This document shows, in pieces, positions 1,978-15,200 of a stretch of DNA of 64,000 nucleotides. How positions within the stretch are numbered: position 1 is the first letter of the stretch; each line of letters begins with the position of its first letter. A program made the translations under genes and the position numbers. Under the pieces are notes generated by a model that worked only from the letters and a program-made list of their open reading frames with translations, searched no databases and had not been told where the DNA came from. The stretch comes from an uncultured Planctomycetia bacterium (GTDB lineage: Bacteria; Omnitrophota; Gorgyraeia; Tantalellales; Tantalellaceae): the NCBI GenBank assembly GCA_964451815.1, contig CAYVIW010000076.1:6210-70209 (forward strand), written 5' to 3'.

Positions 1978-4668
1978 TCAAACCAGAGCGGCCAGGTTAT
2001 CTTTGAGGTTATCTATCTCGTTGCGGAACTTTTCCCGTTTGGACATTTCCTTTTCTATGACATCGCGGGGAGCTTTATCGAGAAAAGTTTTGTTGGAAAG
2101 TTTATTTTCAAGCCCCGAAAGGAATTTCTCTATCTGTTGTATCTTGATATCGACCCTTTTCCTTTCGACCTCTATGTCCACGGCGTTCCCAAGGGGTATA
2201 TAGAGTTTTATATTATCCACGAGCGCCGCGACAGACCTCTGCGGCCTTTCAACATCCGCCCCCGCGCCCGCGATCCTGCAAAGAGCGAGTTTTTCAAGAT
2301 AAACCGCGTTATTCTCTATAAGGGCCGGGTCCCCGACGTCCGGCGAGGAGAAAAAAACATCCAGTACTGCCTTGGGCCCTACGTTCCAGAACGCCCTTAT
2401 ATTCCTTATGGCCGTTATCATGCGGATGAGTTTCTCCATACCCTGGTAAGCTGCTTCGTCCGTATACTCCTTCTCCACAAGCGGCCATTCCGACATCATT
2501 ATCCATTCACACCCGGCTCCCGGGACCATCTGCCATATCTCTTCGGTGATAAACGGCATTATGGGATGCAGTAATTGCAGGGCTTTTTTAAGAACAGCGA
2601 TGAGCACCTTCTGCGTGGCGTTCTTATCGGAAGAAAGCTTTGATACCTCAAGATACCAGTCGCAATACTTATGCCAAATGAAGTCATAAAGATGCCCGGC
2701 CGCGTCGCTGAAACGGTACTTCTCAAGACTTTCGGTCACGTCCCCGGCGGTTTTGTTCAGATTATGCAGTATCCACCTTTCGGCAAGGCCCAATGAACTG
2801 TAGTCCAGTTCCTCATCCAGAACATTCTCATCAAGGTTCATCAGAACATACCTGGAAGCGTTCCATATCTTGTTGGCGAAATTCCTGCCGATATCGAATT
2901 TATCTTTAGAAAGAAAAACGTCCTGCCCCTGGCTCGTTATAGAAATTACGCTGAACCTCAGGGCATCACTGCCCACTTCGGCTATTATTTCCAGCGGATC
3001 TATCACGTTACCGAGTGATTTTGACATCTTAGTACCAGTAGCGTCCCTTACCGTACCGTGTATATAAACATCCCTGAACGGTATGCCGCCGATGAACTTG
3101 AGACCGGCCATTATCATGCGGGCCACCCAGAAGAATATTATTTCCTGGGCCGTAACAAGCGCCTTTGTCGGGTAAAAAACATCGAGCGTTCTGCTCTTTT
3201 CAGGCCATCCCATGGTCGAAAAAGGCCATAGCCATGAACTGAACCAGGTATCCAGAACGTCAGGGTCCTGCTCTAGATCGCTCCCGCCGCACGAAGGACA
3301 TTTTTCGGGCTTTTCCCTTCCCACAAAGACGCCTTCTTGCCCGGGCCGGGTTATATCAACTTCTCTAACATCCTTGTGTCCCAGACACTGCCTGCAATAC
3401 CACACAGGTATACGATGCCCCCACCATATCTGACGTGAAATACACCAGTCCCTGATATTATTCATCCAGTTAAGGTACACTTTGGTCCATCGCCCCGGAT
3501 AGAACTTTATATCGCCCTTTTCCACCGCTTCTATGGCCTCTCGCGCCAACGGCTTCATCCTAACGAACCATTGCTTTGAAAGGCGCGGCTCCACAATCAC
3601 GTGGCATCTGTAACAATGTCCAACGGCATGGGAATGGTCCTCCGACTTTACAAAAAGCTTACGCTGTTTTAGGTCTTCGATTATCACTTCACGGCATTCC
3701 AGCCTGTCCATGCCTTCGTAATCCTGGCCCAACGCGTTTATGGTCCCGTCGGGGTTCATGACATTGACATTTTCAAGCCCGTGTTTGAGCCCAAGCTCGA
3801 AATCTACGGGATCATGCGCCGGCGTGACCTTGAGGGCGCCTGTGCCGAACTGGGGTTCTACACTTTCATCGAAAATAAGTTTGAGCTCTCTTTTTATTAT
3901 GGGAAGTATAAGTGTCTTACCTTTTAGATGGGCGTATCTCGGGTCTTTCGGGTTAACCGCTACGGCAACATCACCCAGCATTGTCTCAGGCCTGGTGGTA
4001 GCGACCACCACATAATCCTCGTTCTCCGTCTCCAGCTTTTCTCTGCCCTTTACGGGATATTTTATGTAGTAGAGCATACCCTCAAGGTTCCTGTGTTCGG
4101 CCTCCTCGTCACTCAGGGCTGTCTCGCATCTGGGACACCAGTTAATTATGTAGTCCCCTTTGTAGATCAGGCCTTCCCCGTAAAGCCTGATAAAGACCTC
4201 CTTAACCGCTTCCGACAGGCCTTCATCCATAGTAAAGCGCGTGCGGTCCCAGTCGCAGGAACATCCCAGCCTCTTGAGCTGACGTATAATAGTGTTGCCG
4301 TATTCCTCTTTCCACTGCCACACTTTTTCCGTAAACTTTTCGCGCCCGATGTCGTGTCTCTTGAGCCCGCTTTTGGTCAGTTCTCTCTCCACTACATTCT
4401 GTGTAGCGATCCCGGCATGGTCCGTTCCGGGCATCCAGAGAGCCTCAAATCCCTGCATCCTTTTCCATCTTACCAGTATGTCCTGGATAGTATTGTTGAG
4501 CGCATGGCCCATATGGAGGATACCGGTGATATTCGGTGGAGGTATGACTATCGAATAGGGCGCTTTGCCGGAACTCTCATCGGCCCTGAAAAAGCCCTTT
4601 TCGGACCATGCGGAATATATTTTCTCTTCGGCCGAACTGGGATCGTATCTTGTGGGGATATCTTTCAT
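1978..4668 (-). CDS. valS: Valyl-tRNA synthetase.
   Basis: 896 aa carrying the class I HIGH motif (LHMGHALN) and KMSKS, with a typical ValRS N-terminus and C-terminal coiled coil. Confidence 0.95.
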   Translation of the reverse strand: MKDIPTRYDPSSAEEKIYSAWSEKGFFRADESSGKAPYSIVIPPPNITGILHMGHALNNTIQDILVRWKRMQGFEALWMPGTDHAGIATQNVVERELTKSGLKRHDIGREKFTEKVWQWKEEYGNTIIRQLKRLGCSCDWDRTRFTMDEGLSEAVKEVFIRLYGEGLIYKGDYIINWCPRCETALSDEEAEHRNLEGMLYYIKYPVKGREKLETENEDYVVVATTRPETMLGDVAVAVNPKDPRYAHLKGKTLILPIIKRELKLIFDESVEPQFGTGALKVTPAHDPVDFELGLKHGLENVNVMNPDGTINALGQDYEGMDRLECREVIIEDLKQRKLFVKSEDHSHAVGHCYRCHVIVEPRLSKQWFVRMKPLAREAIEAVEKGDIKFYPGRWTKVYLNWMNNIRDWCISRQIWWGHRIPVWYCRQCLGHKDVREVDITRPGQEGVFVGREKPEKCPSCGGSDLEQDPDVLDTWFSSWLWPFSTMGWPEKSRTLDVFYPTKALVTAQEIIFFWVARMIMAGLKFIGGIPFRDVYIHGTVRDATGTKMSKSLGNVIDPLEIIAEVGSDALRFSVISITSQGQDVFLSKDKFDIGRNFANKIWNASRYVLMNLDENVLDEELDYSSLGLAERWILHNLNKTAGDVTESLEKYRFSDAAGHLYDFIWHKYCDWYLEVSKLSSDKNATQKVLIAVLKKALQLLHPIMPFITEEIWQMVPGAGCEWIMMSEWPLVEKEYTDEAAYQGMEKLIRMITAIRNIRAFWNVGPKAVLDVFFSSPDVGDPALIENNAVYLEKLALCRIAGAGADVERPQRSVAALVDNIKLYIPLGNAVDIEVERKRVDIKIQQIEKFLSGLENKLSNKTFLDKAPRDVIEKEMSKREKFRNEIDNLKDNLAALV

Positions 4669-9862: not shown

Positions 9863-11164
9863 CTATCCTTCTATTCGTATTGCCGCGGTCTTAGCGGTCA
9901 CCCATTCCATAGCGTCTATTTCGGATATCGCTTTTCTCATATCGCCTTCTTTGACCTTATGGGTCATTATTACCACGGGTACTGTTTCTCCCTCGTTCCT
10001 TTCCTCCTGTGATACATTGGCTATACTGATGTTGTTGGTGGAAAGAACAGTAGATATACCCGCAAGTACCCCCGGCTTGTCTATTACAGAGAACCTCAGA
10101 TAATAAGCCAGGCTTATCTCTTCCATGCTCCGTATGCCATTGCCGGAAGAAGCGTAATTCATCCTGTACGGCAGGGGGTTGTCGCTGCCGGAATAAGCCA
10201 CATGCTCCGCTATCTCAACTATATCGCCTATGATCGAGCTTGCAGTAGGTTCTTTTCCCGCTCCCTTCCCAAAAAGAAGCGATTCTCCGATAAGATCGCC
10301 CCTAACGTATATTGCGTTATCAGCTCCGCGTACGTCAGAAAGAAGATGTGAAGATCTCAGAAGCGTCGGGTGCACTCTCAGCTCTATGCCTTTGTCGGAC
10401 TCTTTGGCGACACCCAGAAGCTTGACGCCGTATCCCCATTTTTTAGCGTTCGCTATATCCTGAGGCTCTATCGAGGAAATACCCTCGGTATGAACATCGC
10501 TGGCGTATACTTCCTGTCCGAAACACAGAAGCGCCAGTATCGCCAGTTTGTGGGCACTGTCAGCGCCGCTTATATCAAGCTCCGGATCTTTTTCGGCTAT
10601 CCCTTTCTCCTGGGCTATTTTTAACGCCTCGTCAAAAGAAAGCCCCTTTTCCTCCATCATGGTCAGGATAAAATTAGTGGTACCGTTAAGTATGCCATAG
10701 ACAGTGCTTATCCTGTTGGCCACAAAACTCTCTCTCAGCGTACGGATTATGGGTACAGCCCCGCAGACACTGGCCTCGAAGTTGACAAAAAGTCCCTTCT
10801 CCGACGCGGAACCGAATATCTCCTTCCAGCTTTCCGAAAGCAGGGCCTTATTTGCTGTAACAACATGCTTGCCGCTTTCAATAGCTTCGAGTATCATGCT
10901 CCTGGCGGGCTCTATGCCCCCCGCAAGCTCGACTATGATATCTATCCCGTCGTCAAGAATAAGATCTTTATAGGACATTGTCTTGACCGTTCCGTCGCCG
11001 GCACATGTCCTTTCTAAAGCGTTCTTATCCTTGTCGCACAGCGCCCTGATAACAAGCGAAACCCCGGTTCTCTCAGCTATAAGCGCCCCATTGCGGTTTA
11101 TGGACTCAACCACTCCGCTGCCGACGGTACCCAGGCCTATTATACCGATACTAACGCTCTTCAT
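9863..11164 (-). CDS. hom: Homoserine dehydrogenase.
   Basis: NAD-binding GLGTVGSGV, a catalytic domain and a C-terminal ACT domain. The start is trimmed to MKSVSIG because the extended ORF would run through the tRNA. Confidence 0.9.
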
Positions 11165-11232
11165 GATGTCCTCTCCCGGTCTGTCTCTGTCCTTCCTGCC
11201 CATGCCACGAATAGGACTCGTATTGAATAAAA

Positions 11233-11311
11233 TGGTCGGGACGGTGGGATTTGAACCCACGACCCCTAGTCCCCCAGACTAGTACGCTAAACCAGGCTGC
11301 GCCACGTCCCG
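11233..11311 (-). tRNA. tRNA-Pro with anticodon GGG and an encoded CCA tail.
   Basis: Folded by hand as a cloverleaf. The acceptor stem is CGGGACG/CGTCCCG and positions 8-9 are U8 and G9. The D stem is GCGC/GCGU and the anticodon stem CUAGU/ACUAG carries the loop CU-GGG-GG. The T arm is GUGGG-UUCAAAU-CCCAC, followed by discriminator A and CCA. Confidence 0.8.
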
Positions 11312-11316
11312 ACCGT

Positions 11317-12303
11317 TCATTCGTGATCCTCTTCTTTAGCTTCCCGCGTCATGAGTTCCTCTACCGCCAGCGCGGGCTCCTTACCCTCATATATGACCTC
11401 ATAGACTTTCCTGGTTATCGGCATTTCTACCGAATATTTCTTTGAAAGCTCAAACCCGGACATGGACGTAGCCATCCCTTCTACTACCATCTCCATCCCG
11501 GACATTATCTTTTCAATGCCGATGCCCCTGCCTACCTGTTCTCCGAACCACCTGTTTCGGCTATGGGAGCTTATGCATGTCGTAGCCAGGTCTCCCAGAC
11601 CGCTGAGACCCCGGAAAGTAGAGCTTTCGGCTCCCATCTTTACTCCCAGCCTCGTTATCTCCGCCAGTCCCCTGGTCAAAAGCCCGGCTTTGGAGTTGGT
11701 GCCGAATCCCATTCCGTCAGATATTCCAGCGGCTATAGCCACCACGTTCTTGAGTGCGCCGCCGATTTCCACGCCCTTAACGTCGGAAGACGTGTAAACA
11801 CGGAACGAACCAGTCATCAGCAGCCTTTGTATATCGTTCCTCACTCCCGTTGCCGAAGCTACAACAACAGTCGTAGGCATTCCCCTGGCTACTTCCCATG
11901 CTATACTTGGTCCCGAGAGCACGCTTATCTCATTTTGAGGGAAATGCTCCGCTAATATCTCGGACGGCCTTTTAAGGGATATTTTAGCAATGCCTTTTGT
12001 AGCGCTTATTATGTTCCCAAGATCGACATCTTTGAACCTTTGAGCCACACCGTTAAGATGTTCGCAGGGAACAACAAAAAATGTATGATCTGCCCCGTCA
12101 ATGTCGGAAACCTTTGAGGTAATAACAAGATCCGCCGGCAGAGATACACCCTTCAAAAACTTGATGTTTTCTCTTTGCTCTCTGATCTGATCGGCGTACT
12201 CCGGAAAAGCGCTCCACAAGATAACGTCTAACCCTTTTGAACGCATAAGGATAGACAATGCTGTGCCCCAACCGCCGTCGCCTATTACACATATCTTTCC
12301 CAT
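11317..12303 (-). CDS. gpsA: NAD(P)H-dependent glycerol-3-phosphate dehydrogenase.
   Basis: Starts MGKICVIGDGGWGTALS and resembles GpsA over its full length. Confidence 0.9.
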   Translation of the reverse strand: MGKICVIGDGGWGTALSILMRSKGLDVILWSAFPEYADQIREQRENIKFLKGVSLPADLVITSKVSDIDGADHTFFVVPCEHLNGVAQRFKDVDLGNIISATKGIAKISLKRPSEILAEHFPQNEISVLSGPSIAWEVARGMPTTVVVASATGVRNDIQRLLMTGSFRVYTSSDVKGVEIGGALKNVVAIAAGISDGMGFGTNSKAGLLTRGLAEITRLGVKMGAESSTFRGLSGLGDLATTCISSHSRNRWFGEQVGRGIGIEKIMSGMEMVVEGMATSMSGFELSKKYSVEMPITRKVYEVIYEGKEPALAVEELMTREAKEEDHE

Positions 12304-12320
12304 AACAGTTTAGGAGAGTT

Positions 12321-12334
12321 TATCATATATGATA
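12321..12334. promoter_or_regulatory. Perfect 14-bp palindrome TATCATATATGATA lying 18 nt upstream of the gpsA start codon.
   Basis: Read directly from the sequence. It overlaps the only -10-like hexamers ahead of gpsA, and no Shine-Dalgarno sequence is present. Confidence 0.4.
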
Positions 12335-12402
12335 TTTATAGTCAATCAATATGAACGTGGAGTGTGTAACATATTGTAGGCACTTTCTTGATAATTTCAC
12401 CG

Positions 12403-12488
12403 CTTGGGTAGGATCAAGTTGACAAGGACAGGTGTGGGATCAAAATCGGGACAGTTGTGGGACTAGCACAGGGACAGGTGTAGGATCA
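12403..12488. repeat. About 3.5 tandem copies of a 23-bp unit (GGACAG[G/T]TGT[G/A]GGA[T/C][C/T]A…), followed by an inverted partial copy at 12495-12506.
   Basis: Unit starts at 12426, 12449 and 12472 give a 23-bp period, with a partial unit at 12403-12416. The segment GAACCGTCCCTG at 12495-12506 is the reverse complement of the start of a unit. Confidence 0.6.
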
Positions 12489-12506
12489 TTTTCAGAACCG
12501 TCCCTG

Positions 12507-12554
12507 TTTCCAAAAAGAAAAAGAGAGGACCAGCTACGCGCCGATCCTCTCTTT
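12507..12554 (-). terminator. Rho-independent terminator candidate on the minus strand, downstream of the orphan ORF.
   Basis: A 10-bp stem (AAAGAGAGGA/TCCTCTCTTT) with a 15-nt loop at 12520-12554. On the minus strand it is followed by a UUUUUCUUUUU tract. Confidence 0.45.
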
Positions 12555-12702
12555 TGGAGGTAAGGACTGCATAATCATGCAGCCTTCGGGAGTTATCGTC
12601 TGACAGCCAGCTCCATCAGAGCCAGCTGGAATCTTATCATACTTATCTTTAAAAGAACCGCAAAGAACGTTATACAGTGGGGTGATCTGGTTTGCTTTTG
12701 TT

Positions 12703-13089
12703 TCATCGCTCTATCCCCCTGTCAGAAAGATCCATAACATTACCTTCAAGCTCTACCCTGAGCTCGTTCACATAAAATACACGGTAAGCCGCGTTTCCCC
12801 ACACCGCGAAGAATTCTCCCAGGACCTTGCATACTATCTTATTGGCCCCGGTCCGGGTGTCTATATTCCTGAGAACATGGCAATCTTTTTTTAAACCAGA
12901 CTTCTTTTGCCGCTCTATCCATTGTTTTAACTCTTTTACGTCTTCTGAGATGAATTTTTCACGGATATAATATTTACACACTCGCTTTTTATTTATCCGT
13001 GATTCCGTACGGTATACCGTCTCTTCCACGGATACCTCACGCTTTCTGGGGTTATGCCCGAGTATGTCGCGATGCACTATTCTTTTCAT
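12703..13089 (-). CDS. Hypothetical protein; an orphan ORF in the insertion between plsY and gpsA.
   Basis: 128-aa ORF that I could not assign to any family. It sits in AT-rich DNA with its own downstream terminator. The start is uncertain because the ORF track accepts GTG and TTG. Confidence 0.4.
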   Translation of the reverse strand: MKRIVHRDILGHNPRKREVSVEETVYRTESRINKKRVCKYYIREKFISEDVKELKQWIERQKKSGLKKDCHVLRNIDTRTGANKIVCKVLGEFFAVWGNAAYRVFYVNELRVELEGNVMDLSDRGIER

Positions 13090-13198
13090 CGTCCCCTACT
13101 TTTTAAATTGATTTAATAAGTTGCAATAAAAAAATTCCTTTCGGAACGACTAACACCTTTAGTATACTATATTGATGTGGATTTGCAAGTAAATTTTT

Positions 13199-13825
13199 TT
13201 AACTTTTTTTTACCTTAACTATCCTTTTCTCTTCGCCCTGAATAAGACGCTTTATATTCGACCTGTGCGAATATAGGCCAATGACGCACAAAATTGACAT
13301 AAATATAATATCAGTAAGGCTTTTTTGAAAAACAAGAGCCAAAACCGGTAAGGATGCCGCGGCAATTATGGACGCGAGAGAGACATACTTACCGATCATA
13401 AAGACCGCTACCCATATTATGAGTCCGGCAAGGAATATTCCGGGATATAAACCCGTCATAACTCCCGCGGTCGTAGCCACACCCTTGCCTCCCTTGAATC
13501 CCAGAAAACATGTCCATATATGTCCCGCTATCGCGGCCGAGGCGATAGCTATTATAAGTATGCCGCTTTCCGCCACAGGATCATCTGTCAGCATGCGTAC
13601 CACCTGAGGGAAGAGGGTCACCGGGATAAATCCCTTGATATAATCCAGCACAAGAACGATAATACCGGGTAATTTTCCAACGGTCCTGAAAACATTAGTG
13701 GCCCCAACGTTGCCGCTGCCATACTTTCTTATGTCTATGCCCTTCAGCATTTTTCCGAAAATATAAGCCGTTGGAATGGAACCTACTATGTATGCCGCGG
13801 CCACGGCCGCCAAAGCGAAGAACAT
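13199..13825 (-). CDS. plsY: Glycerol-3-phosphate acyltransferase PlsY.
   Basis: Starts MFFALAAVAAAYIVGSIPTAYIFGK…GSGNVGATN and is a multi-TM protein. Confidence 0.9.
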   Translation of the reverse strand: MFFALAAVAAAYIVGSIPTAYIFGKMLKGIDIRKYGSGNVGATNVFRTVGKLPGIIVLVLDYIKGFIPVTLFPQVVRMLTDDPVAESGILIIAIASAAIAGHIWTCFLGFKGGKGVATTAGVMTGLYPGIFLAGLIIWVAVFMIGKYVSLASIIAAASLPVLALVFQKSLTDIIFMSILCVIGLYSHRSNIKRLIQGEEKRIVKVKKS

Positions 13826-13844: not shown

Positions 13845-15200
13845 CTATTTCTTTACCTTTCTATCTTTTCGGGACTTTGATAGGATCACCTTTATCGGTA
13901 TACCCGCAAGAGGCAGGTGCGCCCGAAGCTGGTTCTCTATAAAACTCATATGGGACGGCAACACATTTGACGGCTCCGACACAAAATATTTAAATTCTAC
14001 CGGTCTGGTACGGTGCTGGACCACATAAAGAAAATTAGGCCTCCTGGCACGTCTCGGCACCGGAACATCCGACGGATCGGACTTCTCGAATATCCTGTTC
14101 AGAAAAGGAGTGGATGCCTTTACATCAAGATTCGCGTCCAATACCTTAGCCATCTGCAGGCAGTCCATGACGTTACCTCCCGTGAGGGAAGAGATAAAAG
14201 ACAAGGGATATCTAACAAGACGGCTCGAAGCGTAAAACAGGTTCTTGCGGTATTCCTCAACCGATATACCCCCCACCTCTTCCGCCAGGTCCCATTTATT
14301 GACCGCGATAAGACAGGCTTTGCCGGAGTCCTCCACAAAGGAAAGTATACCTAAGTCATCCCTGGTCACACCGTCCTGGGCGTCAAGGAGCAATATTACC
14401 ACATCACTCCTTTTTATGGACTCTCTGGACCTCATCATGCTGAAAGAATCCACCACGGCCTTTACTTTTCTGTCGTGCCGGATACCGGCGGTGTCGATCA
14501 GCACATACTCATCATCCTGGTATGAAAAATTCGTATCGATGGAATCTCTTGTCGTACCCGGTATATCGCTCACTATAACCCTGTCACGCGAGAGCATGGT
14601 GTTTATGAACGAGGATTTCCCAACATTGGGCCGCCCTATGACCGCTATTTTCAAACGGCGCGCGTCAGAGCGCTCTTCCCTCAGGTCGGTCTCTTTGACC
14701 TTCTCCAGGAGATGGTTCTTGAGCTTTCGTATGCCTCTCCGGTGCGCGCATGAAACGTTCTTTGGATCACCGAACCCGAGTTGATAGAACTCGCAGGCGT
14801 CCTGTCCCAAAGTGTCGTTATCGGTCTTATTGGCTACTACCATTACCTCTTCGCTGAACTTTCTGAGCAGGGAAGCCATCTCGATGTCCGCGCCGGTGAC
14901 ACCTTGTATGGAATCTACGACCATCAGAACAATGTCGGCCTCTTCCATGGCACCGTATATCTGATCCTTGACCTTCATCGAGATATCGTCCTTGTCGGCC
15001 GCGGCATACCCACCCGTGTCCACTATCTTAACAGACCGGCCTCCTATTTTTATTACGGCCTCAAGGCGATCCCTTGTAGTACCTGATTGTTCCACCACTA
15101 CAGCACGCCGTTCACCCACAAGACAGTTAAAAAGTGAAGACTTCCCGACATTGGGCCTGCCAACTATACATATCGCGGGTAACTTGTTATGCTTTTCCAT
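13845..15200 (-). CDS. der: Ribosome-associated GTPase Der (EngA).
   Basis: Two tandem GTPase domains (GRPNVGKSS appears twice) followed by a KH-like C-terminal domain. Confidence 0.9.
   Translation of the reverse strand: MEKHNKLPAICIVGRPNVGKSSLFNCLVGERRAVVVEQSGTTRDRLEAVIKIGGRSVKIVDTGGYAAADKDDISMKVKDQIYGAMEEADIVLMVVDSIQGVTGADIEMASLLRKFSEEVMVVANKTDNDTLGQDACEFYQLGFGDPKNVSCAHRRGIRKLKNHLLEKVKETDLREERSDARRLKIAVIGRPNVGKSSFINTMLSRDRVIVSDIPGTTRDSIDTNFSYQDDEYVLIDTAGIRHDRKVKAVVDSFSMMRSRESIKRSDVVILLLDAQDGVTRDDLGILSFVEDSGKACLIAVNKWDLAEEVGGISVEEYRKNLFYASSRLVRYPLSFISSLTGGNVMDCLQMAKVLDANLDVKASTPFLNRIFEKSDPSDVPVPRRARRPNFLYVVQHRTRPVEFKYFVSEPSNVLPSHMSFIENQLRAHLPLAGIPIKVILSKSRKDRKVKK

What the first reader, a model, noticed from the sequence alone, without database searches (positions are those of the whole stretch)
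12304..13198. An ~0.9 kb AT-rich insertion between the normally adjacent plsY and gpsA, carrying an orphan ORF, its own terminator and repeat arrays
plsY and gpsA are usually neighbours. Here they are separated by 895 bp containing a 128-aa ORF of no recognisable family. Its features are worth a closer look. A minus-strand terminator hairpin sits 150 nt past its stop. Two further perfect hairpin-forming palindromes lie at 12566-12583 (CTGCAT-AATC-ATGCAG) and at about 12605-12630 (CCAGCT…AGCTGG). A block of 23-bp tandem repeats follows. This resembles a small accessory cassette, such as a toxin or an Abi-like single-gene module, or the remnant of a mobile element. Alternatively the structured 12540-12700 stretch could encode an RNA.
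Basis: seen in the sequence. Interest (0 to 1): 0.5.

Follow-up and report, generated by a model that had tools for sequence, protein, structure and literature searches.

The report
Conserved small operon behind plsY
What looked like a foreign insertion between two lipid-synthesis genes is an old operon specific to the phylum Omnitrophota, encoding an unknown 128-aa protein and a 37-aa hydrophobic peptide and ending in a conserved structured RNA tail; in sister lineages the same gene sits behind a c-di-GMP-type riboswitch, and its function is still unknown.

Summary
Homologues of the ORF lie directly after plsY in every related locus fetched (44 of 44 that extend upstream). All source-named members are Omnitrophota, protein identity falls to about 15-20%, and dN/dS is 0.07-0.12. 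No viral, plasmid or phage relatives were found.

The unit has its own sigma70-like promoter and a conserved AT-rich leader with an invariant TTTAAAAAG box. It carries ORF128, a basic protein of a new family (confident AF2 model, no convincing fold match).

An 80-nt 3' RNA element follows, absent from Rfam. The other palindrome is its hairpin, which shows covariation. The hairpin is flanked by unpaired CUCCC and ACCUCC, which resemble the anti-Shine-Dalgarno sequence, and is followed by the terminator.

Sister subfamilies lack the peptide but keep a CCUCC loop, and several carry a c-di-GMP-I-clan riboswitch in the leader.

The 23-bp repeats are lineage-specific filler in a hypervariable spacer. 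The functions of both proteins remain inferred.

The parts
13161..13188 (-). Sigma70-like promoter of the unit (TTGCAA-16 nt-TATACT), starting 11 nt after the plsY stop codon
   Evidence: Consensus scan. The -35 CTTGCA and -10 TATAMT are conserved in 18 aligned leaders, with T, A, T, A and the final T invariant. No transcription start has been mapped.
13128..13154 (-). Leader segment GTTAG - small hairpin TTCC/GGAA - T7 run
   Evidence: GTTAG, AAAGG and the T-run are conserved columns in A9. The segment looks like a terminator in some loci only. Its role is unresolved.
13098..13121 (-). AT-rich inverted repeat ACTTATTAAAT-CA-ATTTAAAAAGT; the right half TTTAAAAAG is the invariant leader box
   Evidence: Inverted repeat I14. 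TTTAAAAAG is invariant or nearly so in all 18 leaders aligned. It is also present upstream of the riboswitch in subfamily 2. It occurs once in the 64-kb window.
12703..13089 (-). ORF128: a 128-aa basic (pI 9.7) soluble protein, founder of an Omnitrophota-restricted family without Pfam or PDB relatives; SD AGGGGA at 13092-13097
12593..12706 (-).
   Evidence: ORF listed. Found in all 20 subfamily-1 loci with enough downstream DNA, exactly 37 aa in 16, each with its own SD, with K20 and E32 invariant. In the C-terminal half dN is 0.10-0.15 while dS is 1.4 or higher, or saturated. The best 19-residue Kyte-Doolittle window is 1.55-2.17 and the hydrophobic moment is low. No Pfam match.
12587..12592 (-). 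Unpaired C-rich 5' flank of the 3' element (CUCCCG, directly after the TAA stop codon)
   Evidence: Conserved columns in A5. Unpaired in the MFE and centroid folds of all 12 orthologous elements folded.
12562..12586 (-).
   Evidence: Each orthologue folds into this hairpin despite different stem sequences. 7 of 9 modelled pairs show changes on both sides.
12556..12561 (-). Unpaired ACCUCC (part of the invariant CCUUACCUCC, 12556-12565), an anti-Shine-Dalgarno-like motif
   Evidence: C36, C37, T38 and C39 are invariant and T34, A35 and C40 nearly so (numbering of the window row) in 14 lineages. Unpaired in the folds. Exact match at 12556-12565(-).
12506..12555 (-). Intrinsic terminator: 16-bp hairpin (12519-12555) plus U-run
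   Evidence: Terminator scan. 96% of cells are paired and 10 of 12 pairs show compensatory changes. The whole element has a z-score of -6.3 against shuffles.
12515..12594 (-). The whole 3' RNA element as matched by covariance model R1
   Evidence: 84.2 bits, and the only match below E 0.1 in the window. There is one copy per locus at the same site in 16 sources at E 1e-4 or better. L044 and L020 were not in the training set. No Rfam family matches.
12346..12505 (.). Hypervariable spacer between the terminator and the gpsA promoter; holds the three 23-bp direct repeats (cores 12425-12441, 12448-12464, 12471-12487); not part of the conserved unit
   Evidence: Cannot be aligned with the closest relative L044, although the flanks are 90-100% identical. 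The spacer is almost absent in L003 and L004 and has different content in L001, L006, L009, L010 and L024. The repeat motif is absent from all 45 loci. No folding signal, z = +0.41.
12317..12345 (-). gpsA promoter (TTGACT-17 nt-TAAACT with a TG extension), the boundary of the unit
   Evidence: Consensus scan. Identical in L044. ATTGACTAT...ATATATGYTAMACT is conserved in all loci where gpsA follows.

Best explanation
The 895-bp gap is not an insertion. It is an ancestral, vertically inherited transcription unit found so far only in Omnitrophota, and it always sits directly behind plsY.

**Order on the minus strand**
1. A sigma70-like promoter.
2. A conserved AT-rich leader with an invariant TTTAAAAAG box.
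3. ORF128, a basic soluble alpha+beta protein of a family with no known relatives.
4. ORF37, a 37-aa basic hydrophobic peptide, probably membrane-inserted, that overlaps ORF128 by ATGA.
5. An 80-nt 3' element: a covarying hairpin flanked by single-stranded CUCCC and ACCUCC.
6. A strong intrinsic terminator.

**Shown:** conservation and synteny, coding selection on both ORFs, the RNA structure with covariation, and the riboswitch in sister loci.

**Inferred mechanism:** the unpaired C-rich motifs act as anti-Shine-Dalgarno sequences. They pair with G-rich ribosome-binding sites, either those of the operon itself (ORF37 above all) or those of other mRNAs. Protein output would then be set after transcription.

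Several sister lineages put the same gene under a c-di-GMP-I-clan riboswitch, and the gene never leaves plsY. The products therefore most likely act in a second-messenger-linked envelope or membrane programme.

The 23-bp repeats are lineage-specific filler in a hypervariable spacer and play no part in the conserved unit.
For: **Synteny**
- A homologue follows plsY in every fetched locus that extends upstream. This covers three subfamilies down to about 15-20% identity.
- The downstream neighbour varies: gpsA, an adenosine-specific kinase-domain (PF04008) gene, NIL-Fer4 or an Ala_racemase_N-domain (PF01168) gene.

**Coding**
- ORF128 has dN/dS 0.07-0.12.
- The C-terminal half of ORF37 has dN 0.10-0.15 against a dS that is saturated or nearly so.
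- ORF37 keeps a fixed 37-aa length in most loci and has its own SD in every one, while its offset from the ORF128 stop codon ranges from -24 to +36 nt.

**RNA element**
- Model R1 finds one copy per locus.
- 88% of cells are paired, against 44-59% when the partners are slid.
- 17 of 21 pairs show compensatory changes.
- The covariation score is 0.58, against 0.27 shuffled.
- z-scores run from -3.5 to -7.4.
- There is only 1 substitution across the R1 match between the window and L044, where ORF128 dS is 0.74.
- The C-rich flanks are invariant and unpaired.

**Anti-SD reading**
- The partition function pairs the ORF37 SD with ACCUCC at p of 0.57 or more in 7 of 14 lineages, and with CUCCC in 2 more (MFE structures).
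- Subfamily 2 has no ORF37 but keeps an invariant CCCCUCCUU in the apical loop of its terminator hairpin. That loop is complementary to the unusual GGAGGGGGA and GAGGGGGA SDs of L028, L030 and L027.

**c-di-GMP link**
- L027 carries RF01051 at 42.4 bits, above the gathering score of 35.
- L034, L035, L033, L032 and L026 carry matches to the same clan at E 6e-7 to 0.04, in the same leader position.

**Not mobile**
-.
Against: - In the window's own sequence the partition function does not pair the ORF37 SD with either C-rich motif. It pairs the SD with an internal CCCC in ORF37 instead.
- Any SD is complementary to CCUCC by construction, so complementarity is not specific evidence.
- There are no expression, processing or translation data.
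- The window's lineage has no riboswitch, so the c-di-GMP link is by homology only.
- The Rfam matches other than L027 are below gathering scores.
- ORF128 has no fold or sequence relative, so the biochemical role of both proteins is a guess.
- Linkage to plsY could be historical, because the unit has its own promoter and terminator.
- The R1 alignment is fitted to the model and the sequences are related, so both inflate the pair statistics.
- L013 and L024 have ORF37 but lack the element.
Confidence: 0.5

Rival explanations
1. The 3' element works mainly in trans. It would be released or accumulate as a small RNA derived from the 3' UTR (hairpin plus terminator), and its unpaired C-rich seeds would bind the Shine-Dalgarno regions of other mRNAs, as the C-rich regions of RoxS/RsaE do. 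ORF128 and ORF37 would then be unrelated passengers or co-regulated products.
For: - The architecture (unpaired C-rich motifs around a hairpin, followed by a terminator) matches C-rich sRNAs. [quoted passage not shown]
- Nucleotide conservation is extreme, loops included.
- The motif is kept in subfamily 2, which lacks ORF37.
- In the window itself, cis pairing with the ORF37 SD is not predicted.
- CCUUACCUCC is complementary to extended SDs of the GGAGGUAA type, and near-matches occur on gene strands in the window.
Against: - No internal promoter or processing site has been identified.
- There are no target predictions and no expression data.
- The element directly abuts the ORF37 stop codon in all lineages, which fits a cis role as well.
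- There is no Rfam relative.
Confidence: 0.2
2. ORF128 is a nucleic-acid-binding autoregulator. The invariant AT-rich inverted repeat in the leader, the 3' hairpin, or both would be its binding sites, as happens with ribosomal-protein or phage coat-protein feedback. The C-rich motifs would then be protein contacts rather than pairing partners.
For: - All family members are basic, with pI 9.3-9.9.
- The TTTAAAAAG box co-occurs with the family across all three subfamilies, is unique in the window, and is conserved in sequence rather than by covariation.
- A box-like sequence also follows the promoter of the separate downstream RNA in subfamily 3.
Against: - There is no recognisable DNA- or RNA-binding domain.
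- No binding data exist.
- The left half-site is poorly kept in L012 and L015, which is unusual for a dimer operator.
Confidence: 0.15
3. ORF37 is a type I toxin-like membrane peptide. Its mRNA would be kept translationally inert by 3' anti-SD sequences, as in hok or aapA1. ORF128 would act like mok, an upstream frame to which toxin translation is coupled.
For: - ORF37 is a small, hydrophobic, basic peptide of 37 aa.
- It overlaps the upstream ORF by ATGA.
- C-rich anti-SD-like motifs lie at the 3' end of the mRNA, and the SD is predicted to be sequestered in many lineages.
- In aapA1 the full-length mRNA fold blocks translation until its 3' end is processed (PMC5416894; PMC6733600).
- A promoter-like site on the opposite strand at 12419-12446 (10 of 12 matches) could give an antisense RNA across the terminator.
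Against: - There is no conserved antisense promoter. That site lies in the spacer that is not conserved, and L003 and L004 have no room for one.
- The locus is single-copy, syntenic and phylum-wide, not patchy.
- ORF128 is far more conserved than a coupling frame needs to be.
- Subfamilies 2 and 3 keep ORF128 and the C-rich RNA without any peptide.
- Two conserved lysines sit in the middle of the hydrophobic stretch.
Confidence: 0.08
4. One reading: a recently acquired accessory cassette (toxin or Abi-like) or the remnant of a mobile element inserted between plsY and gpsA.
For: - GC content is somewhat lower than in the neighbours.
- The unit has its own promoter and terminator.
- It is an orphan ORF without a family.
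- Repeats lie next to it.
Against: - The unit is conserved at the same site in all relatives, under strong purifying selection.
- There are no mobility genes or terminal repeats.
- No defence-system match is reproducible.
- There are no viral, plasmid or phage homologues.
- The repeats lie outside the conserved unit.
Confidence: 0.02

Closest known systems
Type I toxin mRNAs with intramolecular anti-SD control (hok/mok/sok; aapA1/IsoA1 of Helicobacter, PMC5416894, PMC6733600)
   Same: A short hydrophobic basic peptide ORF. C-rich sequences near the 3' end of the mRNA that can mask the SD. Translational overlap with an upstream frame.
   Different: No conserved antisense RNA. The locus is single-copy and syntenic across a phylum. 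The upstream frame is a well-conserved 128-aa protein. Sister clades keep the RNA motif without the peptide. Toxicity has not been tested.
C-rich-motif small RNAs (RoxS/RsaE; PMC5419742) and sRNAs derived from 3' UTRs
   Same: Unpaired C-rich motifs beside or inside hairpins, followed by an intrinsic terminator. Complementary to G-rich ribosome-binding sites.
   Different: No sequence or Rfam relationship. No evidence for a separate transcript. Targets are unknown. The motif directly abuts a stop codon.
c-di-GMP-I (GEMM-I, RF01051 / clan CL00126) riboswitch-controlled genes
   Same: Orthologues of ORF128 in subfamily 2 carry an aptamer of this clan in the 5' leader.
   Different: The window's lineage has no aptamer. 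Only L027 passes a gathering score. Whether the aptamers are the canonical type or the GGC variant, and which ligand they bind, is not resolved. The regulated protein family is uncharacterised.
UTRA / chorismate-lyase-like ligand-binding fold (e.g. 2pkh, 3cnv, 3ddv, 2ogg, 1fw9)
Small membrane-protein modulators such as CydX (37 aa), KdpF, AcrZ and MgtS (from general knowledge, not tested here)
   Same: Size, hydrophobicity, and being encoded next to genes for membrane enzymes.
   Different: No homology. The partner is unknown. The peptide is present in only one of three subfamilies.

Membership tests
Mobile element / recent insertion cassette | Presence/absence polymorphism at the site among related genomes | tested here: not met
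   A homologue is present directly after plsY in every locus that extends upstream.
Mobile element / recent insertion cassette | Mobility genes or terminal direct or inverted repeats bounding the cassette | tested here: not met
   No such ORFs are present. No bounding repeats were found. There are no viral, plasmid or phage relatives.
Anti-phage defence / Abi single-gene module | Reproducible match to a defence-system protein model | tested here: not met
   The PADLOC CARF4 hit has E 0.0017 and occurs in only 2 of 59 family members.
Type I toxin-antitoxin | Small hydrophobic peptide of fewer than 60 aa | tested here: met
   ORF37 has a best 19-residue Kyte-Doolittle window of 1.55-2.17 and a pI of 10-12.
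Type I toxin-antitoxin | Conserved antisense RNA antitoxin with its own promoter | tested here: not met
   The only opposite-strand promoter-like site (12419-12446) lies in the spacer that is not conserved. L003 and L004 have no spacer.
Type I toxin-antitoxin | SD sequestered by intramolecular anti-SD pairing | tested here: inconclusive
   Pairing is predicted in 9 of 14 lineages but not in the window itself. These are thermodynamic predictions only.
Type I toxin-antitoxin | Toxicity of the peptide on expression | not testable with these tools
   Needs an experiment.
c-di-GMP-I riboswitch (RF01051) | Covariance-model score at or above the gathering score in the 5' leader | tested here: not met
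   The window at 12200-13300 has no match even at E up to 10. The feature is met in the sister locus L027 (42.4 against 35 bits). It is sub-threshold but significant in five more loci.
Any Rfam family (3' element) | Covariance-model match | tested here: not met
   Only chance-level miRNA and snoRNA hits, with E 0.57 or higher. The whole-window scan at gathering thresholds finds only a tRNA.
Intrinsic (Rho-independent) terminator | GC-rich hairpin followed by a U-run, with a conserved stem | tested here: met
   16-pair stem plus a U-rich tail. 10 of 12 pairs show compensatory changes.
C-rich-motif sRNA (RoxS/RsaE type) | Independent or processed stable small transcript with demonstrated SD targets | not testable with these tools
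   Only the architecture (unpaired C-rich motifs plus a terminator) could be shown.
PilZ c-di-GMP receptor domain (considered because of the riboswitch link) | PF07238 match, or RxxxR ... D/NxSxxG motifs | tested here: not met
   No PilZ hit in 59 members. The RKRDxSxxE stretch lacks the glycine and the motif spacing.

The most novel reading that the evidence does not exclude
The hairpin followed directly by unpaired ACCUCC would be a mimic of the 3' end of 16S rRNA (a helix-45-like hairpin plus the anti-SD tail). Together with ORF128, and in some lineages ORF37, it would form an Omnitrophota-specific translation-control device. The device would sponge SD-containing mRNAs or factors that bind the anti-SD tail. 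It would be switched by c-di-GMP in the riboswitch-bearing lineages and coupled to membrane-lipid synthesis through its fixed position behind plsY.
Probability: 0.05. Interest if true: 0.8.

Novelty: new variant of a known kind. Interest (0 to 1): 0.45.

Why it matters
Omnitrophota are uncultivated, and very few of their lineage-specific genes have any functional handle. This work defines four things:

- A phylum-wide, single-copy protein family with no known relatives and a confident predicted structure.
- An unannotated, conserved 37-aa peptide.
- A structured RNA motif that is absent from Rfam and exposes anti-SD-like sequences.
- A link between this gene family and c-di-GMP-type riboswitches.

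Riboswitch-controlled genes of unknown function are among the better leads to new second-messenger outputs. An anti-SD-type 3' element conserved across a phylum would extend a control principle known mainly from toxin mRNAs and Firmicute sRNAs. It is also a useful negative result for the scan: the apparent insertion is core genome, and the eye-catching repeats are not part of it.

Tried and rejected
- **Family searches.** Pfam, PHROGs, PADLOC and NCBIfam on ORF128 and on 59 family members gave nothing reproducible. The CARF hit was rejected as spurious.
- **Solved structures.** A PDB sequence profile search gave only two zinc-finger chains (PRDM9) at E 0.023 and 2.2, judged chance.
- **Fold searches.**
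  - The second model, from 73 sequences, was good but still had no fold match.
  - The afdb50 library was not available.
- **Internal duplication of ORF128.** Not detected by hhalign.
- **PilZ idea.** Rejected: no Pfam hit and the motifs do not fit.
- **Leader peptide in the 5' leader.** Rejected, because there is no conserved start codon or frame.
- **Type III TA or retron readings of the repeats.** Rejected: the repeats are not conserved, are not upstream of the ORF on its strand, and show no folding signal.
- **Second sigma70 promoter using the AT box as a -10 element.** The spacing to the TTGNNN is only 14-16 nt and the final T is missing. Left open.
- **ORF37 homologue search.** Pfam gave nothing.
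- **Rfam on the structured RNAs of subfamily 3.** Nothing.
- **Literature search for c-di-GMP-I-GGC and for Omnitrophica riboswitches.** Nothing that bears on this family.
Full report
**Observation**

All genes in the region are on the minus strand: der 13845-15200, plsY 13199-13825 and gpsA 11317-12303. The 895-bp gap is real. So are the 128-aa ORF at 12703-13089, the terminator hairpin at 12555-12519 (148 nt past the stop codon), and the palindromes CTGCAT/ATGCAG (12567-12582) and CCAGCT/AGCTGG (12607-12629).

The three 23-bp direct repeats at 12422-12501 are also real.
- They are degenerate, at 68-76% identity to the reference copy, and TRF does not call them.
- Their 17-nt core matches three times, against 0.15 expected.

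GC content is only modestly lower than in the neighbours.

Its ATG overlaps the ORF128 stop codon as ATGA.

**Not an insertion**

ORF128 has nine close homologue clusters at 50-90% identity. All their contigs show the same order: lepA-lepB-pgsA-der-plsY-[ORF128]-[37 aa]-gpsA-hom-thrC.

- A scan of one genome per GTDB species gave 18 loci. Their titles are Omnitrophota MAGs, MAGs labelled "uncultured Planctomycetia", and the Candidatus taxa Omnitrophus magneticus, Tantalella remota and Makaraimicrobium thalassicum. plsY lies immediately upstream wherever upstream DNA exists.
- A profile search of 1.8 billion representative proteins found 70 clusters. Apart from a few fragments and two long proteins with weak partial matches, they are single-domain proteins of about 100-155 aa.
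- A second search returned only proteins named as Omnitrophota, or unnamed.
- Distant members at about 15-25% identity still follow plsY, but der and gpsA are no longer adjacent. The downstream gene is then an adenosine-specific kinase-domain (PF04008) gene, a response regulator, a NIL-Fer4 gene or an Ala_racemase_N-domain (PF01168) gene.
- Even within subfamily 1, gpsA is not the downstream gene in L008 and L023.
- The family is single-copy in the window.
- It has no viral, plasmid or phage relatives.
- dN/dS for ORF128 is 0.07-0.12.

**The proteins**

ORF128 has no Pfam, PHROGs, NCBIfam or PDB sequence relative.
- A weak PADLOC CARF hit recurs in only 2 of 59 members.
- With a 73-sequence alignment, AlphaFold2 gives pLDDT 85.4, and all five models score 83-85. 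The order of elements is b(2-8) b(17-27) b(30-47) a(51-64) b(69-77) b(82-97) b(100-116).
- Foldseek finds nothing better than E 0.019, and hhalign sees no internal repeat.
- All subfamilies are basic, with pI 9.3-9.9.

ORF37 is present in all 20 subfamily-1 loci that have enough downstream DNA.
- It is exactly 37 aa in 16 of them.
- K20 and E32 are invariant, with the pattern K-[LI]-x-h-[ILV]-[KR]-x-Q-h-h-h-h-E.
- Every locus has a proper SD, although the start lies anywhere from 24 nt before to 36 nt after the ORF128 stop codon.
- Its C-terminal half has dN 0.10-0.15 against a dS of 1.4 or higher, or saturated. Its N-terminal half evolves fast, with dN/dS of about 0.5-0.9.
- It is hydrophobic with a low helical moment, and basic.
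- It is therefore a real coding gene, probably for a small membrane peptide.
- It has no Pfam match. Subfamilies 2 and 3 lack it.

**The 3' RNA element**

Directly after the ORF37 stop codon, 14 lineages share this order: (U)AACUCCC-RAGG-[hairpin]-CCUUACCUCC-[long terminator hairpin].

- Each orthologue folds the same way, with z-scores of -3.5 to -7.4. The CUCCC and ACCUCC flanks are unpaired.
- Covariance model R1 finds exactly one copy per locus at this site in 16 sources at E 1e-4 or better. These include L044 and L020, which were not used to build it. There is no other match below E 0.1 in the 64-kb window.
- On the model-fitted alignment, 88% of cells pair, against 44-59% for slid partners. 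17 of 21 pairs have changes on both sides. The covariation score is 0.58, against 0.27 for shuffles.
- Two caveats apply. The alignment is fitted to the model, and the sequences are related.
- Against the closest relative, L044, there is only 1 substitution across the R1 match. ORF128 synonymous sites have dS 0.74 over the same comparison.
- No Rfam family matches.

The second lies in codons 27-33 of ORF37.

Subfamily 2 has a differently built 3' element. It is a long terminator hairpin whose apical loop of about 20 nt carries an invariant CCCCUCCUU.

**The leader**

Eighteen leaders share these features:
- a sigma70-like promoter just after the plsY stop codon (window 13188-13161);
- GTTAG...AAAGG followed by a T7-8 run;
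- an AT-rich inverted repeat whose right half, TTTAAAAAG, is invariant.

The box occurs once in the window.

- **Subfamily 2.** A c-di-GMP-I-clan aptamer is inserted between the box and the SD.
  - L027 scores 42.4 bits against the gathering score of 35.
  - L034, L035, L033, L032 and L026 give E values of 6e-7 to 0.04.
  - L028 and L030 lack the aptamer.
- **Subfamily 3.** These loci have a different structured leader with no Rfam match.
- **The window.** Its leader has no aptamer.

**The repeats**

The alignment with L044 is 90-100% identical up to the end of the terminator. It resumes at 100% from the gpsA promoter. In between it collapses.

- The spacer is nearly absent in L003 and L004.
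- It carries unrelated, often palindromic, sequences in L001, L006, L009, L010 and L024.
- The 23-bp repeat motif occurs in none of the 45 loci.
- The spacer has no folding signal, z = +0.41.

The repeats are therefore lineage-specific content of a hypervariable spacer upstream of the conserved gpsA promoter (12345-12317). A role as binding sites cannot be excluded, but conservation does not support it.

**Mechanism**

Shown:
- a conserved, autonomous two-gene unit with structured 5' and 3' untranslated regions;
- exposed, invariant C-rich motifs;
- riboswitch control in sister lineages.

Inferred:
- CUCCC and ACCUCC are identical to the core of the 16S anti-SD, so they are complementary to ribosome-binding sites.
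- The partition function pairs the ORF37 SD with ACCUCC at p of 0.57 or more in 7 of 14 lineages, and with CUCCC in 2 more. It does not do so in the window itself, where the SD pairs with an internal CCCC.
- In subfamily 2 the loop UCCCCCUCC is the exact complement of the unusual SD GGAGGGGGA of L028. It is also largely complementary to those of L027 and L030.

I therefore favour anti-SD-type post-transcriptional control. It may act in cis, as in hok or aapA1 mRNAs (PMC5416894, PMC6733600). It may act in trans, as with C-rich sRNAs such as RoxS (PMC5419742). The two cannot be separated here.

The riboswitch association and the unbroken linkage to plsY point to a role in a second-messenger-linked membrane or envelope programme. 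This is association only.

**Verdict**

The insertion interpretation is rejected, and the RNA alternative is half right. What is there is a previously undescribed, phylum-restricted operon with an RNA motif absent from Rfam. It is moderately interesting and its biochemical function is unknown.

Noticed in passing
window 11236-11311 (-): A tRNA gene (RF00005, 59.7 bits) lies between gpsA and the homoserine dehydrogenase gene. The mechanical ORF 9863-11260 (GTG start) overlaps its first 25 nt, so the true hom start is probably further in (about residue 29-33 by homology).
   Followed up: partly
L027 3828-3914; L034 1329-1415; L035 1376-1440; L033 635-724; L032 1351-1440; L026 3847-3930: Aptamers of the c-di-GMP-I clan (GEMM-I) lie in the 5' leaders of ORF128-family genes of subfamily 2. 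The GGC-variant model scores about as well as the canonical one, so ligand specificity is open. Each aptamer is followed by a hairpin GCCGGGUUGCC...GGUAACCCGGC that could be the expression platform.
   Followed up: partly
L036 about 1878-2045; also L037, L039 and L042 downstream of the ORF: Subfamily-3 loci carry a separate unit after the ORF. It has a TTGACA-17-TATACT promoter, a box-like TTTAAAAAG and an RNA of about 110 nt. The hairpin loop of that RNA shows UGGAGG, which is SD-like and the complement of the CCUCC motif of subfamilies 1-2. A terminator follows. There is no Rfam match. Their 5' leaders share another unmatched motif (CCCCACCAGCCA ... GGCCGGGUUGCC ... GGYAACCCGG).
   Followed up: partly
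L027 about 4385-4620 (and L034, same sequence): Two to three tandem copies of a unit of about 75 nt (GGTATAGGAAAATATAAATACGATACCACTGCGAAAATCACCTTTTATAGTTATCGCCGAAGGCGATTTTCTTGT) are inserted between the ORF stop codon and the conserved 3' element.
   Followed up: no
Spacers after the terminator: L006 5600-5911, L009 3590-3657, L010 3585-3700, L024 430-520; also the leader of L022: The spacer between the unit's terminator and the next promoter is a hot spot for unrelated palindromic, REP- or MITE-like repeats. Examples are GTGCCAGGCAC-type hairpins and CAACCTCGTAGGTTGAACC repeats shared by L022 and L024. In L006 a block of about 90 nt is repeated at the contig end.
   Followed up: no
window 12419-12446 (+): The best promoter-like match in the region (TTGACA-16-CAAAAT, 10 of 12) lies inside the 23-bp repeats on the opposite strand and points into the terminator and ORF37. 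It is not conserved in any relative.
   Followed up: partly
window 12593-12650 and 12515-12594 compared with L044: Between the window and its closest relative, synonymous divergence is 0.74 in ORF128. It is only 0.08 in the C-terminal half of ORF37, and there is 1 substitution across the 3' element. By contrast, the first 18 codons of ORF37 differ at 18 positions. This reflects either RNA-level constraint reaching into the coding region or a recent recombination patch.
   Followed up: partly
window 12304-12345 (-): The gpsA promoter (TTGACT-17-TAAACT with TG) and its short leader are almost invariant across lineages. The leader (CTCTCCTAAACTGTT before ATG) has no recognisable Shine-Dalgarno sequence.
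   Followed up: no
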